This document shows positions 34,491 to 63,699 of a stretch of DNA of 64,000 nucleotides, piece by piece; within the stretch, counting starts at the first letter, position 1; every line of letters starts with the position of its first letter. The stretch covers positions 1 to 64,000 of the IMG/VR virus record IMGVR_UViG_2524614764_000005, one strand, 5' to 3'. A program made the position numbers and the translations under genes. The DNA is from a virus. Its lineage: Duplodnaviria > Caudoviricetes. The notes under the pieces are model-generated. The model saw nothing but the letters and a program-made list of their open reading frames with translations, searched no databases and had not been told where the DNA came from.

Positions 34491-34999
34491 TTTTGCCCAC
34501 CAATCTTAAAAATCAATTTGTATCCAGTGTAACCACTTGGAGGATTAGCGATTGGTTGCCCTCTCACAAACTGTGTTTTCCCATAACCAGCAACATTCTT
34601 CCCTAAATATATCTTTGAAAGTCTGTCAATAATTTTGAGACTCCTAAATTCGTTTTCTTCGAATGTGTCAATGTGAGTGTATACATCAAAATGCAAATCT
34701 CGCTCTAAAACTTTCTCACTTAAATGCGGAGGGAGAGGAGAAGAGATGCCAAAATAAATACACACTCTGCAAATAGGCTTATCATCAGTTAAATCGTTTG
34801 TTTTAGCAGCCCTTTTGAAGATTGTCTTGAAAATTGAAGTTTTCTCATCTGGGGTTGGTTCGAAATAGTTGTCCAACTCTTGGACATTAGGAAGATCAGG
34901 GGAGAGGGGGGTGTCTTTATAATAGAGAAGACGATTTAGATCGATATCCTGCCATGCTCTATTAAACAACTCAGTCATTTCTTGAACCATCATACTCAT
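34484..34999 (-). CDS. yomW: Tail terminator-like YomW
   Basis: Synteny. Confidence 0.7.
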   Translation of the reverse strand: MSMMVQEMTELFNRAWQDIDLNRLLYYKDTPLSPDLPNVQELDNYFEPTPDEKTSIFKTIFKRAAKTNDLTDDKPICRVCIYFGISSPLPPHLSEKVLERDLHFDVYTHIDTFEENEFRSLKIIDRLSKIYLGKNVAGYGKTQFVRGQPIANPPSGYTGYKLIFKIGGQKW

Positions 35000-60146: not shown

Positions 60147-60773
60147 ATGACAATGTTGATAGTTATGGCAACAGATAACAGTATTATTATGACTGCCGAT
60201 AAAAGAGTTACAAGAACAGATGGTTATGGGAAAGTTATAAAGATTGTGTCGGATGATTATAAAAAAATAAAAATAATAAAAGGGAAGTATATTGTTTCTT
60301 TTGCTGGCAGAACAGCAATTGCGGAAAAAGCATTCAAATTTATTGATGAAAAAATTGTATCGTTGGAATATGACATTCATTTGTTTTTTAAAAATGCATT
60401 TCAATACGGAAAAGCCTGTTTTGAAAACAGTTTTCCAAATATAGAACCTACATCAGTATTCTTTCTGGGTTATATTAAAGATGATACGAGTTATTTAAAA
60501 GGCTACTCATCAGACGATGATTACAAAGGAATGCCTATCTCTGATAGTATAAAGGTTAGAGCGGAATCCCTTGTTGTGGAGAATCTCCTTTTTAATGAGA
60601 CGCAAAATTTCCTATCAACCAAAATATCTAGTCGACCATCTTTTTATCAGTCCAATGAAAACCTTTCAGTTCTTTTTTCTGAAGCAATTAAAAGAATGAA
60701 TGATCAAATGATTGGAAAAACAACCTACTCTGTGGTTTTAACATCTAATGGTGCAACAGAACTGCACAATTAA
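60147..60773 (+). CDS. Ntn-hydrolase / proteasome-beta-like protein
   Basis: Met-Thr start, IIMTADKRVT, KI, VSFAG pattern. Confidence 0.6.
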   Translation: MTMLIVMATDNSIIMTADKRVTRTDGYGKVIKIVSDDYKKIKIIKGKYIVSFAGRTAIAEKAFKFIDEKIVSLEYDIHLFFKNAFQYGKACFENSFPNIEPTSVFFLGYIKDDTSYLKGYSSDDDYKGMPISDSIKVRAESLVVENLLFNETQNFLSTKISSRPSFYQSNENLSVLFSEAIKRMNDQMIGKTTYSVVLTSNGATELHN

Positions 60774-60869
60774 CTTATTGACTGTTATAAGAAACAATTG
60801 CAAAATGAGCTTCAGTGTTAGTAATAAAGATCAAATAAAATCATTCTTTTAAGGAGAGGTGACAGTTAG

Positions 60870-61922
60870 TTGATTAACATTTTTATAGATACGAACATCT
60901 ATGAGGCGAAGAATTTTAATTTTGATAATAGTAGTATTTCCAGGCTGCAAAATTTCATTGAGAATGAGCATGTTGAATTATTTATAACACCCGTAATAAT
61001 AAAAGAAATCGAAGATCACATTGAACAAAAGGTTGAGGGGTCAGGGAAACAAATTAAGGAATTTAAACAAAATGCGCCTATTATGATAAATTTTGAACCA
61101 TTAAAAAAGATATGGGATCGCGACTTGATAAATCAAGCAAAATTGAAAATTTTAGACCGCTTTCATGAATTTTTAAGAATAAATAGAGTGTATACAGTTC
61201 CTATCAGTGTCACTTATGCAAATCAAATTATACAAAATTACCTTGAAGGCAGTGCGCCTTTTAGTAAAAAAAAGAAGAAAGAATTCCCAGACGCTTTTAC
61301 TATGTATACTCTTTTGGAATGGGCTGAAAAAAATAACGAGATAATTTGTATAATTAGTAATGATAAGGAAATTAGGGATTTTTGTGAGGGTAATTCTAGA
61401 CTCTATTACATCAAGACATTGGAAGAGGCCTTTGATTATATAAACCAACAAGATGATGTTAAGTATCAACAAGCTCAAAACATTTATATGGATCATCTGG
61501 AACAATTTCTAGATGATATAGACAATGAAATTAATGAAGCATGCTTTGCTTTTAATATAGAGGTTTTTGATGTTGAAGATGTAAAAGTAAAAGACTTTTC
61601 TCTTGTGAGAGAAGGGGAATGCTACGATGAGCCTCGGGTTCTTGAATTAGAAGATAGTAAACTTACATTTGTACTTGATGTTAATTTTGAGTTTACTATT
61701 GTAACCAGTAAAATTGACCCCACAAGATCTCCATACGATTCTGAGGAGGGAATGTACTTATACATAGAATATGAAGAAACAGAATATACAGAAATCGTTG
61801 AGCTACCGGTAGAACTTGAATTAAATGTTCAGGATTATGAGAAACAAGACTTTATTATCGAATCAATAAAAATAAATAATGATGAAGCATATCTACATAC
61901 TATTAATGATGATTATTTTTAA
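60870..61922 (+). CDS. PIN-domain protein (DUF4935/PIN_12-like)
   Basis: IFIDTNI, E-I, APF..KKEFPDAF, IISNDK. Confidence 0.8.
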   Translation: MINIFIDTNIYEAKNFNFDNSSISRLQNFIENEHVELFITPVIIKEIEDHIEQKVEGSGKQIKEFKQNAPIMINFEPLKKIWDRDLINQAKLKILDRFHEFLRINRVYTVPISVTYANQIIQNYLEGSAPFSKKKKKEFPDAFTMYTLLEWAEKNNEIICIISNDKEIRDFCEGNSRLYYIKTLEEAFDYINQQDDVKYQQAQNIYMDHLEQFLDDIDNEINEACFAFNIEVFDVEDVKVKDFSLVREGECYDEPRVLELEDSKLTFVLDVNFEFTIVTSKIDPTRSPYDSEEGMYLYIEYEETEYTEIVELPVELELNVQDYEKQDFIIESIKINNDEAYLHTINDDYF

Positions 61923-61977
61923 AATTAAATGTGCTATTTTAAATAAAAGAAGTATTTCATTTAGAAGGTGATGAAAA

Positions 61978-62010
61978 ATGAATCTTGAAGCAATTAAAGT
62001 AGGAGGTTGA
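61978..62010 (+). CDS. Micro-ORF MNLEAIKVGG (arbitrium-peptide-like)
   Basis: Read by hand; AAGGTGA RBS. Confidence 0.5.
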   Translation: MNLEAIKVGG

Positions 62011-62029
62011 CAGTATGGGAGGTGAGTTC

Positions 62030-62056
62030 ATGGCTGATATTCGTCCAGGAGGATAA
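62030..62056 (+). CDS. Micro-ORF MADIRPGG (arbitrium-peptide-like; alternative in-frame start 62015)
   Basis: Read by hand; GGGAGGTG RBS; terminator follows. Confidence 0.55.
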   Translation: MADIRPGG

Positions 62057-62070
62057 GAGTGGAGGAGGGA

Positions 62071-62235
62071 CTAAACCCTCTTTTTCATTCCACATTTGGC
62101 ACATTTGCGTATGAATTCGCCTTTAGATATAGTGGACTTAAATTGAGCTGTATCACAATTGTCGCAGCGGCCACTATTTTTATCAGGGTATTCTCGTATG
62201 TCGTAAATCTTTTCTAAATCAATTTCTTTCAACAT
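62071..62235 (-). CDS. Small zinc-ribbon protein (54 aa, CDNC...CAKC)
   Basis: Read by hand; AGGAG RBS, TATAAT upstream; divergent from aimR. Confidence 0.65.
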   Translation of the reverse strand: MLKEIDLEKIYDIREYPDKNSGRCDNCDTAQFKSTISKGEFIRKCAKCGMKKRV

Positions 62236-62386: not shown

Positions 62387-63544
62387 ATGAATCTTAAAAC
62401 ATACATAAAAAATAAATGCGAAGATGATTCTTCATTGGCTATGAAATTAGCTAAAATAGCTGGCTATTCGGATAGAACTGGCCTTTATAAATTCTTAAAT
62501 AGCCCTAACAAAGAGATGGATGATTTAAACAATCTTATTAATTTAGTTAGGGAAGTTGATCAAGAAAGAGAAATTGAAATAATTAGCACCTATATTACAA
62601 CACTCGACCCTAACAAATCAGCTGCTAGACAAGCTGTAGAATATTTAGATGCTAATCAACTTGGCGACGAAACTGATGAGCTAGTTATTAAATTATGTAA
62701 TGCCAGCAACGCAGTGAGCAAAGAGTGGGGGAATGTATATCGCATCCATAGATTGCTCACAAAAGGTGAAATTGATTTAACTTCTGCTATCAAAGAAACT
62801 GGAACTATTAAAATCAAGAGTGAGGAAATGTTTGTTTTTTCAAGAATGATGACATTATATGAATACCTAAACATTGGTGAGTTTGGTCTTATGAAAAGCA
62901 CTTCAACATATATCGATCTATCTAATTTGAAAAAGGGATACGTTAAGGATTCCTTTAGCTCAAGGTATTTGTTGCTTATGGCCAACGTGTTTTTAAATGA
63001 TAACAATTTAAAACCTCTTAGAGACTACTGTAATCAAATTATATCTGAAGAAGTTAAGGTGAATCGATTTCAAGTGTTTGCTCACCTCACTTGCGGGAAT
63101 TCTTATGTGTTTGATGATTATGATAAAGCAAAAGCATATTACATCAACGGTATGAAATTCGCAAAAAACAGTTTTCATAAATATAAACTTAGATCTGCAT
63201 TAGCATTCTTAGAAAACACATGGGGAATAAAAGAAAACAAATACCTGGAACAGGAACCTAAGAATGATTCTGATTTTATAGAACTCGCACATCATTTAAT
63301 GCTTAATGATCAAACCGAAAAAATGATGGAGGTGTTTAATAAATTAGATTCATCTACTATGCATGACAATGATTTAGGTTTTCTCTACTACGTTAAAGGA
63401 ATTTTCTATAAAGATAAGGCTTGCTATTTGAAATCAGTTAAACATTTTAAGAAATCAGATGACAAGTATTTTATCAAGCTACCTCTAATTAAGTTAAAAA
63501 CAATGGGCATAGATAGTGAGATTTTAGATTTATTGGCTATCTAA
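62387..63544 (+). CDS. aimR: Arbitrium receptor AimR (HTH + TPR)
   Basis: LAKIAGYS HTH, ARQAVEY, KSVKHFKKSDDKYF C-terminus; followed by aimP. Confidence 0.95.
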   Translation: MNLKTYIKNKCEDDSSLAMKLAKIAGYSDRTGLYKFLNSPNKEMDDLNNLINLVREVDQEREIEIISTYITTLDPNKSAARQAVEYLDANQLGDETDELVIKLCNASNAVSKEWGNVYRIHRLLTKGEIDLTSAIKETGTIKIKSEEMFVFSRMMTLYEYLNIGEFGLMKSTSTYIDLSNLKKGYVKDSFSSRYLLLMANVFLNDNNLKPLRDYCNQIISEEVKVNRFQVFAHLTCGNSYVFDDYDKAKAYYINGMKFAKNSFHKYKLRSALAFLENTWGIKENKYLEQEPKNDSDFIELAHHLMLNDQTEKMMEVFNKLDSSTMHDNDLGFLYYVKGIFYKDKACYLKSVKHFKKSDDKYFIKLPLIKLKTMGIDSEILDLLAI

Positions 63545-63573: not shown

Positions 63574-63699
63574 ATGAAAAAATTAGTCATGGCTTTAGTT
63601 TTACTTGCAGCAGTGGCAGGTGTGTTCTCTGGAACACAACAATCAATTGCTTTGGATGATGAGAAAGTCTCTACATCATCTGCTTCTAGAGGTGCATAA
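63574..63699 (+). CDS. aimP: Arbitrium propeptide AimP, 41 aa, mature peptide SASRGA
   Basis: Read by hand: MKKLVMALVLLAAVAGVFSGTQQSIALDDEKVSTSSASRGA; signal peptide plus RGA end. Confidence 0.93.
   Translation: MKKLVMALVLLAAVAGVFSGTQQSIALDDEKVSTSSASRGA

What the first reader, a model, noticed from the sequence alone, without database searches (positions are those of the whole stretch)
61960..62086. Two leaderless micro-ORFs encoding foreign-clade arbitrium-like peptides next to aimR
Seen: two tandem tiny ORFs, each with its own RBS, MNLEAIKVGG (61978-62010) and MADIRPGG (62030-62056; in-frame alternative start at 62015). They sit between a TAAAA-N6-TTTCA junction site and a terminator (gaggg..ccctc plus T-run), about 330 bp upstream of aimR. 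Both end in x-I-[KR]-[VP]-G-G, unlike this phage's own SASRGA. Known (from memory): EIKPGG is the mature arbitrium peptide of the Wbeta-type clade. Inference: these are signal-peptide-free, cytoplasmic mimics of other elements' arbitrium signals. They would jam the AimR-type receptors of co-resident or superinfecting phages or conjugative elements and push them toward lysogeny, i.e. a communication-spoofing system.
Basis: partly seen in the sequence, partly recalled or inferred. Interest (0 to 1): 0.9.

Follow-up and report, generated by a model that had tools for sequence, protein, structure and literature searches.

The report
Forged rival-phage arbitrium signal minigenes
An SPbeta-like Bacillus prophage carries two tiny conserved genes that encode, with no export signal, the exact six-residue "arbitrium" signals of an unrelated temperate phage family from the same hosts, so it probably counterfeits a rival's lysis/lysogeny signal inside the cell.

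Summary
ORF1 (61978-62010) and ORF2 (62030-62056) each have a strong Shine-Dalgarno site and lie between a conserved dyad and a terminator-like hairpin, 330 nt upstream of aimR.

I found 11 distinct alleles of this block in Bacillus pumilus-group SPbeta-like prophages. Each is joined to different upstream cargo genes. Within the last six codons of both ORFs, 7 of 12 third positions vary but only 1 of 24 first or second positions (p=6e-4). The N-terminal "leader" codons vary freely. Two alleles lose the GGAGG word yet keep Gly-Gly.

Both hexapeptides match the C-termini of canonical, signal-peptide-bearing AimPs:
- DIRPGG matches phage vB_BauS_KLEB27-1 and five proviruses.
- AIKVGG and its natural variant EIKVGG match KLEB27-1-like prophages in pumilus-group genomes.

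Those AimPs sit beside Wbeta-type AimR receptors. The block occurs next to three different own AimR/AimP alleles, so it does not co-evolve with its own system.

The best reading is leaderless forgeries that switch off a rival's AimR and bias it towards dormancy. Translation, trimming and binding are untested.

I found no paper describing this. The scan noted the same module earlier on other DNA (e1-5326170), plus analogous minigenes elsewhere.

The parts
61943..61959 (.). Dyad ATAAAA-N6-TTTCA at the 5' boundary of the conserved block. Upstream of it every locus carries different cargo genes.
   Evidence: Alignment of 8 loci and 10 more places. The motif family occurs 11 times in the window against 2.7 expected.
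61964..61972 (+). Shine-Dalgarno site of micro-ORF1 (GAAGGTGAT)
   Evidence: Duplex energy with the 16S 3' end is -10.7 kcal/mol, top 1.5% of start-like codons. It is conserved or strengthened (GGAGGTG) in other alleles.
61978..62010 (+). Micro-ORF1, 10 codons plus stop. It has a variable 4-residue leader and a conserved C-terminal hexapeptide, AIKVGG (EIKVGG in two alleles).
   Evidence: The hexapeptide equals the C-terminus of canonical AimPs in L099 (G019) and P0028/P0031. The E variant equals L098, L101 and P0029/P0032.
62017..62026 (+). Shine-Dalgarno site of micro-ORF2 (GGGAGGTGAG). It is the only conserved part of the 17-20-nt spacer.
   Evidence: Duplex energy is -16.1 kcal/mol, top 0.2%. 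In the 8-locus alignment, 12 of 20 spacer columns vary apart from this core; spacer lengths come from the 11 alleles.
62030..62056 (+). Micro-ORF2, 8 codons plus stop. It reads M-A (M-T in one allele) followed by DIRPGG.
   Evidence: It is identical to the last 6-7 residues of the AimP of phage vB_BauS_KLEB27-1 (L092:2516-2698) and of proviruses L104-L108, and to P0033 from B. pumilus.
62057..62090 (+). Terminator-like hairpin (core gaggg/ccctc, then T5). It ends the + strand unit, and its 3' arm overlaps the last codons of the convergent gene.
   Evidence: Fold energy is -15.4 kcal/mol, z -1.8. It is conserved in all alleles. The consensus scan did not call it.
62071..62235 (-). Convergent 54-aa four-Cys zinc-ribbon gene (Pfam DUF8096). 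It is always linked to the micro-ORF block in this lineage. Function unknown.
   Evidence: Homologues in Cytobacillus and other phages lack the micro-ORFs.
62387..63544 (+). The phage's own aimR (non-cognate for the micro-ORF peptides)
   Evidence: Matches the NF038310 AimR equivalog at 239 bits and is 48% identical to phi3T AimR. It is the only AimR in the provirus.
63574..63699 (+). The phage's own aimP, with a signal peptide and the C-terminus SASRGA

Best explanation
The two micro-ORFs are real, translated minigenes of an SPbeta-like prophage of the Bacillus pumilus group. Each encodes a short variable leader (4 residues in ORF1; Met plus one small residue in ORF2) followed by the exact mature arbitrium hexapeptide of a different temperate phage family, the KLEB27-1-like phages with Wbeta-type AimR. 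ORF1 covers the (A/E)IKVGG receptor lineage and ORF2 the DIRPGG lineage; these two receptor lineages are only 27% identical to each other.

The peptides have no signal sequence, so they are made and stay in the cytoplasm of the cell that carries the SPbeta-like phage. They are probably transcribed as the last cistrons of the variable cargo operon that ends at the hairpin.

When a KLEB27-1-like phage infects that cell, or tries to induce there, its AimR meets a pre-existing 'high signal' and releases its operator. The lysis-promoting output is then not expressed, and the rival is biased towards lysogeny or stays dormant. This spares the host and the resident prophage and removes a competitor.

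Shown here:
- the ORFs and their SD sites;
- peptide-level purifying selection on the hexamers;
- identity to canonical AimP termini of phages of the same host group;
- independence from the phage's own AimR allele.

Inferred:
- transcription and translation;
- removal or tolerance of the short N-terminal leader (Met excision alone would give ADIRPGG from ORF2);
- binding to the rival AimR;
- the effect on lysogeny.
For: **Conservation**
- There are 11 distinct alleles of the block (window, L004, L005, L008, L013, L027, L043, L112, L113, L117 and a Logan contig, X11). Start, SD and stop are kept in all of them.
- In the hexamer codons, 7 of 12 third positions vary against 1 of 24 first/second positions (Fisher p=6e-4).
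- In the leader codons, 5 of 8 first/second positions vary (p=0.0015 against the hexamer).
- The single non-synonymous hexamer change, A to E, switches between two real AimP alleles.
- GGAGG is lost at the ORF2 end in L013 and L043 and at the ORF1 end in L043, while Gly-Gly is kept.
- The minus-strand frames are not conserved, because spacer indels of -2 and +1 break them and there is no start codon.

**Exact matches to canonical AimPs**
- KLEB27-1 and L104-L108 end TADIRPGG.
- L099 ends SAIKVGG. L098 and L101 end SEIKVGG.
- The same termini appear in P0028-P0033, including a B. pumilus protein.
- The adjacent receptors pass the AimR equivalog cut-off.
- L099 has the same primase, HTH, aimR, aimP, sigma-factor layout as KLEB27-1.

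**Same host group**
- KLEB27-1's host is B. australimaris, and L013 is from B. pumilus.
- G014, G019 and G032 share 84-91% nt identity in a host gene with G021, which carries the module.

**Independence from the phage's own system**
- The block sits beside own AimPs ending SASRGA, AIGNGG or DPGRGG.
- The provirus has only one AimR.

**Context**
- The block lies at the end of a variable cargo hot spot holding a PIN_12 gene here and a PDC-S64-like gene in L004.
- Cross-talk between secreted arbitrium peptides of different phages can force early lysogeny (bioRxiv 10.1101/2025.10.13.681967 and 10.1101/2025.10.13.681337).
Against: - There is no expression or translation evidence.
- The conserved block leaves no room for its own promoter, and the scans found none above background. 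Expression therefore depends on read-through from cargo genes of unknown timing.
- The primary products are 8 and 10 residues, not 6. ORF1 needs four residues removed, or a receptor that tolerates an N-terminal extension. For Wbeta, loss of the first residue abolished activity (PMC8878798 citing Stokar-Avihail 2019), so the N-terminus matters.
- None of the five module-bearing genomes examined showed a KLEB27-like prophage. This is uninformative at this sample size.
- The activity of these particular hexapeptides on their own cognate receptors has not been tested either.
- The nucleotide sequences of the micro-ORFs and the aimP 3' ends differ at synonymous sites, so the origin (capture or convergence) is open.
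Confidence: 0.62

Rival explanations
1. The same forged peptides act outside the producer. They are released when the cell lyses, or by an unknown exporter, trimmed by extracellular proteases like normal pro-AimPs, and imported through Opp by neighbouring cells. This broadcasts a false 'many infections' signal to KLEB27-1-like phages in the population.
For: Canonical arbitrium peptides are matured extracellularly and re-imported (PMC6458997 abstract). The variable 4-residue leader of ORF1 needs a trimming step. Secreted cross-talk is documented.
Against: There is no signal peptide and no exporter gene next to the block. Release only at lysis would benefit the producer's prophage little. ORF2 needs almost no processing.
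Confidence: 0.15
2. The peptides are ligands or antagonists for some other receptor. Candidates are the near-identical phi105-like arbitrium systems, whose signals follow [ED][IV][KRI][VP]G[MA], a host RRNPP regulator, or the phage's own AimR.
For: phi105-like prophages of the same genus use EIKVGM, EIKVGA, DVRPGM and similar signals. They co-reside with the module in G021 and in IMG genome 2721755586. Cross-recognition of similar peptides is reported.
Against: No phi105-type AimP is an exact match among 32 proviruses and 25 AimP-like protein clusters, whereas KLEB27-like AimPs match exactly. The phage's own AimR is of three different specificities beside the same block. No second receptor is present in the provirus.
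Confidence: 0.1
3. The ORFs are cis-acting translated elements, either leader-peptide-type control of the hairpin 8 nt downstream of the ORF2 stop or bar-like minigenes. On this reading the act of translation matters, not the peptide.
For: The ORF2 stop lies 0-8 nt from the hairpin foot, so a terminating ribosome would cover the 5' arm. The SD sites are very strong.
Against: The hexapeptides are under selection and identical to foreign AimPs, which a cis-acting role does not explain. There is no alternative structure and no exceptional folding on either strand (z -0.30 and +0.72). No gene lies downstream on this strand to be controlled, only the convergent DUF8096 gene.
Confidence: 0.07
4. They are decaying fragments of captured aimP 3' ends, or chance ORFs in an SD-rich spacer, with no function.
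For: The ORFs are very short, gene callers never annotate them, and there is no own promoter.
Against: Eleven alleles keep start, SD, frame and stop with a synonymous-only pattern. The nucleotide sequence differs from the aimP 3' ends at synonymous sites. The block is retained across at least nine different cargo junctions.
Confidence: 0.05

Closest known systems
Canonical AimP pro-peptides of Wbeta-type-clade arbitrium systems (Wbeta EIKPGG, J5a TIKPGG; here KLEB27-1 and KLEB27-1-like prophages)
   Same: The C-terminal hexapeptides are identical (DIRPGG; AIKVGG and EIKVGG), and the phages infect the same host group.
   Different: There is no signal peptide or pro-region (8 and 10 codons against about 40-45). 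The ORFs are not downstream of, or overlapping, a cognate aimR. There are two different specificities in tandem, and they are carried by an unrelated SPbeta-like phage whose own system uses another signal.
Cross-talk and manipulation between arbitrium phages through secreted AimPs (bioRxiv 10.1101/2025.10.13.681967; 10.1101/2025.10.13.681337)
   Same: One phage's peptide acts on another phage's AimR and pushes it to lysogeny, to the emitter's benefit.
   Different: There, the manipulating peptide is the emitter's own secreted AimP acting on similar receptors within one clade. Here, dedicated receptor-less minigenes encode a foreign clade's signal and lack export signals. The words leaderless, orphan and mimic do not occur in the first preprint.
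SIP, the 8-residue leaderless signal of the RopB regulator in Streptococcus pyogenes (Do et al. 2017, PMC5635878; cited in PMC10075063; details from my own knowledge)
   Same: A tiny ORF whose primary product is essentially the mature ligand of an RRNPP-like receptor, with no Sec leader.
   Different: SIP is the cognate signal of the adjacent receptor and is secreted and re-imported. It is not a copy of a competitor's signal.
phi105/phi106-type arbitrium peptides (phi106 DPPVGM, W23 EIIVGA; bioRxiv 10.1101/2025.11.23.689978)
   Same: The motif is near-identical, and these phages sometimes co-reside in the same genomes as the module.
   Different: The last residue is M or A, never G, and no exact match was found in 32 proviruses and 25 AimP-like protein clusters.

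Membership tests
AimP arbitrium pro-peptide (Pfam PF26811 YopL_AimP) | Precursor of about 40-50 residues with an N-terminal Sec-type signal peptide and a pro-region | tested here: not met
   The products are 10 and 8 residues with no hydrophobic segment.
AimP arbitrium pro-peptide (Pfam PF26811 YopL_AimP) | Gene lies immediately downstream of, or overlaps, its cognate aimR | tested here: not met
   The ORFs lie 330 nt upstream of aimR, separated from it by a hairpin and a convergent gene. The phage's own aimP is at 63574-63699.
AimP arbitrium pro-peptide (Pfam PF26811 YopL_AimP) | C-terminal 6 residues constitute the mature signal | tested here: met
   The last six residues are identical to the C-termini of canonical AimPs beside AimR genes and are the only strongly constrained part. 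Activity of these peptides has not been assayed.
AimP arbitrium pro-peptide (Pfam PF26811 YopL_AimP) | Match to the family HMM | not testable with these tools
   The products are below the 20-residue minimum of the profile scans. Even the full-length AimPs of L099, L104 and the window gave no Pfam hit.
AimR receptors of the proposed targets (NCBIfam NF038310) | The receptor next to the matching AimP passes the AimR equivalog cut-off | tested here: met
   L099 scores 222.9 bits and L104 161 bits against a cut-off of 70. PF22871 is also met. KLEB27-1 AimR is 32-34% identical to the Wbeta-group AimRs.
Leader-peptide transcription attenuator | ORF overlaps mutually exclusive terminator and antiterminator structures | tested here: not met
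   Only the single hairpin forms. The whole-region fold has z -0.30 on the + strand and +0.72 on the - strand.
Rho-independent terminator | GC-rich hairpin followed directly by a U tract | tested here: inconclusive
   The hairpin folds at -15.4 kcal/mol, is followed by T5 and is conserved. The consensus scan did not report it.

The most novel reading that the evidence does not exclude
These minigenes are a prophage-encoded 'defence by persuasion'. The prophage keeps ready-made counterfeit copies of two rival arbitrium dialects in the cytoplasm. It thereby converts lytic infection or induction by KLEB27-1-like phages into dormancy. Together with the analogous minigenes noted elsewhere in this scan, they would define a general, previously unannotated class of signal-forging genes in phage-phage conflict.
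Probability: 0.5. Interest if true: 0.9.

Novelty: new variant of a known kind. Interest (0 to 1): 0.85.

Why it matters
Arbitrium is the model for viral communication. Recent preprints show that phages can influence each other through similar secreted signals.

Dedicated, export-less minigenes that encode another phage family's exact signal would be a new tactic. It would be deliberate forgery from inside the cell, using genes too small for any annotation pipeline; none of the gene calls in 10 contigs includes them.

It would also give a selective force for the rapid diversification of AimR/AimP alleles. It would add a non-destructive kind of superinfection defence. It would show that 8-10-codon genes can be under strong selection.

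The prediction is directly testable with existing material: phage KLEB27-1, its host, and synthetic peptides.

Tried and rejected
**RNA evidence.** No RNA holder was listed for the stretch. Three RNA runs of the same species label laid 0 reads. That is no test, because the strains need not carry the prophage.

**Nucleotide search.** The INPHARED phage collection gave no nucleotide match to the block.

**RNA families.** Rfam gave no relevant hit. The structured-RNA and antisense CCUCC-sponge ideas were dropped because neither strand folds better than shuffles and the substitution pattern is codon-periodic in the + frames.

**Minus-strand ORFs.** The 24-aa and 36-aa ORFs were rejected. They have no conserved start, and spacer indels break the frame.

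**First target hypothesis.** I first took phi105-like AimRs as the target because their motif is similar. I demoted this once exact matches turned up in KLEB27-like systems.

**phi18-2 and 268TH002.** Their AimPs end INAIGG, which matches neither ORF.

**Other aimR loci.** I found no comparable SD-led micro-ORFs near aimR in SPbeta, phi3T or the other aimR loci of the genus.

**Co-occurrence.** The test of the module against KLEB27-like prophages is too small to interpret: 0 of 5 module-bearing genomes.

**Host genomes.** L112, L115 and L116 are not held, so their prophage content could not be checked.

**Complex prediction.** Not run, because the tool asks for chains of 30 residues or more and these peptides have 8-10.

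I redid them by reference.

Full report
**What is there.**
- The window is the first 64 kb of a 104-kb IMG/VR provirus. It is an SPbeta-like phage whose AimR is 48% identical to that of phi3T.
- A 350-aa PIN_12 gene ends at 61922. Next comes a 17-nt dyad at 61943-61959, then a Shine-Dalgarno (SD) site, then ORF1 at 61978-62010.
- A 19-nt spacer follows, whose only conserved part is a second SD. ORF2 lies at 62030-62056, followed by a hairpin with a T5 run at 62057-62090.
- The stop codon of a convergent 54-aa zinc-ribbon gene (DUF8096, 62071-62235) lies in the hairpin loop.
- aimR starts 330 nt after ORF2. The phage's own aimP (63574-63699) ends SASRGA.
- The SD-to-16S pairing energies (-10.7 and -16.1 kcal/mol) are in the top 1.5% and 0.2% of all start-like codons of the provirus. 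Among 84 SD-led micro-ORFs in the provirus, only these end in Gly followed by Gly, Ala or Met.

**Are the ORFs real genes?**
- I collected the homologous block from several sources:
  - three IMG/VR proviruses (L004, L005, L008);
  - a B. pumilus genome (L013);
  - a metagenome contig (L027);
  - a Logan contig (X11);
  - a species-representative genome (L043 in G021);
  - further assemblies reached through the zinc-ribbon protein (L112, L113, L117).
- This gives 11 distinct alleles. Conservation begins exactly at the dyad. Upstream of it, every lineage has different cargo genes (PIN_12, a PDC-S64-like gene, membrane proteins, small ORFs).
- Both ORFs keep an SD, a start (ATG or TTG) and a stop (TAA, TAG or TGA) in all alleles.
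- In the 12 codons that encode the two C-terminal hexapeptides, 7 of 12 third positions vary but only 1 of 24 first/second positions (Fisher p=6e-4). In the leader codons, 5 of 8 first/second positions vary (p=0.0015 against the hexamers).
- ORF1 leaders come in eight versions. The hexapeptide comes in two.
L013 and L043 read GGT GGA, and L043 also GGT GGG. These destroy GGAGG but keep Gly-Gly.
- Minus-strand coding is excluded. There is no conserved start, and the spacer length varies between 17, 19 and 20 nt. Over ORF1, the variable sites fall on first codon positions of the only open minus frame.
- Neither strand folds better than shuffled sequence, and Rfam finds nothing.

**Whose peptides are these?**
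- The held literature confirms EIKPGG and TIKPGG as the Wbeta-group signals (PMC8878798).
- A census in the genus first showed a similar dialect in phi105-like prophages. Their signals follow [ED][IV][KRI][VP]G[MA], seen in 32 proviruses and 25 AimP-like protein clusters, but none is an exact match.
In OM654379.1 (host Bacillus australimaris) the AimR-like gp50 is followed by an unannotated, overlapping ORF with a signal peptide. That ORF ends TADIRPGG. Five 59-64-kb proviruses carry the same.
- I then searched the 49 species genomes of the genus with this AimR. This found KLEB27-1-like modules whose AimPs end SAIKVGG (L099, G019) and SEIKVGG (L098 in G032, L101 in G014).
- L099 has the same gene order as KLEB27-1: primase, two HTH genes, aimR, aimP, sigma factor.
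- The large protein collection holds the same termini, including a B. pumilus and a B. velezensis entry.
- All these receptors pass the AimR equivalog cut-off. KLEB27-1 AimR is 32-34% identical to Wbeta-group AimRs.
- The DIRPGG and AIKVGG receptors are only 27% identical to each other. The AIKVGG and EIKVGG receptors are 69% identical.
- So ORF2 equals one receptor lineage's signal, and ORF1 equals another's. The only amino-acid polymorphism in the ORF1 hexamer (A or E) toggles between two real alleles.
- G014, G019 and G032 are pumilus-group genomes, with 84-91% nt identity to G021 in a host gene.

**Relation to the phage's own system.**
- The same block sits beside three different own AimR/AimP alleles, with signals ending SASRGA, AIGNGG or DPGRGG.
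- The provirus has a single AimR. The peptides are therefore not tuned to the adjacent receptor.

**Mechanism proposed.**
- The conserved block has no room for a promoter, and no terminator precedes it. The ORFs are therefore probably the last cistrons of whichever cargo operon lies upstream, ending at the shared hairpin.
- Their products stay in the cytoplasm. Methionine excision alone would turn the ORF2 product into ADIRPGG, because the second residue is Ala or Thr in all alleles. ORF1 needs four residues removed or tolerated.
- The peptides would occupy the AimR of an incoming or co-resident KLEB27-1-like phage and mimic a high signal level. This would bias the rival to lysogeny or keep it from inducing. 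Added or cross-reacting secreted peptides are reported to have the same outcome.
- Translation, maturation, binding and phenotype are inferred, not shown.

**Alternatives.** I considered action after release, other receptors including the phi105-type, a cis-acting uORF role, and relics. They are listed with their odds under rival explanations. The phi105-type systems co-reside with the block in two genomes and could be secondary targets through cross-recognition.

**Novelty.** Searches of the held literature found secreted cross-talk but no leaderless or receptor-less arbitrium minigenes. Within this scan, the same module was noted earlier on another genome, and analogous minigenes were noted in other Bacillus and Brevibacillus phages. 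Those notes are leads, not evidence. I verified only the KLEB27-1 claim.

Noticed in passing
window 62071-62235 (-): A 54-aa four-Cys zinc-ribbon gene (Pfam DUF8096), divergent from aimR and convergent with the micro-ORFs. It is always linked to the block in this lineage. Homologues at 53-65% identity in Cytobacillus, Neobacillus, Peribacillus and other prophages lack the micro-ORFs. Function unknown.
   Followed up: partly
window 60147-61922 (+): The cargo just upstream is a weak proteasome/Ntn-hydrolase-like 208-aa gene plus a 350-aa PIN_12 gene. Other alleles carry a PDC-S64-like candidate defence gene, membrane proteins or small ORFs at the same junction. This looks like a variable, probably defence-related, hot spot.
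   Followed up: partly
window 61943-61959 and 10 other sites (e.g. 28401, 30395, 37792, 57119): The dyad ATAAAA-N6-TTT(C/T)A recurs 11 times in the window (up to 3 mismatches) against 2.7 expected. At the micro-ORF locus it marks the exact recombination boundary between variable cargo and the conserved block. Its role (recombination site, operator) is unknown.
   Followed up: partly
L092:2516-2698 (OM654379.1, about 34492-34674): The aimP of phage vB_BauS_KLEB27-1 is not annotated in the GenBank record. It overlaps the 3' end of the AimR-like gp50 in another frame. The same overlap of 64-112 nt is seen in all KLEB27-like loci examined.
   Followed up: yes
L059 (KY197768.1, 'phi105'): The record labelled phi105 holds an AimR (59% identical to L058's) and an AimP ending EVRVGM, whereas bioRxiv 10.1101/2025.10.13.681967 lists Phi105 as having no arbitrium. 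The record and the laboratory phage may differ.
   Followed up: no
L008/L010, L027, L043 against the window: The aimR-aimP cassette next to the conserved block has been swapped among at least three specificities, with AimRs only 39-42% identical and signals ending SASRGA, AIGNGG or DPGRGG. The micro-ORF and DUF8096 block stays 79-84% identical in DNA.
   Followed up: partly
L052, L054, L058: phi105-like prophages of pumilus-group genomes sit next to a truncated gerE-like reading frame, which suggests integration into or beside gerE.
   Followed up: no
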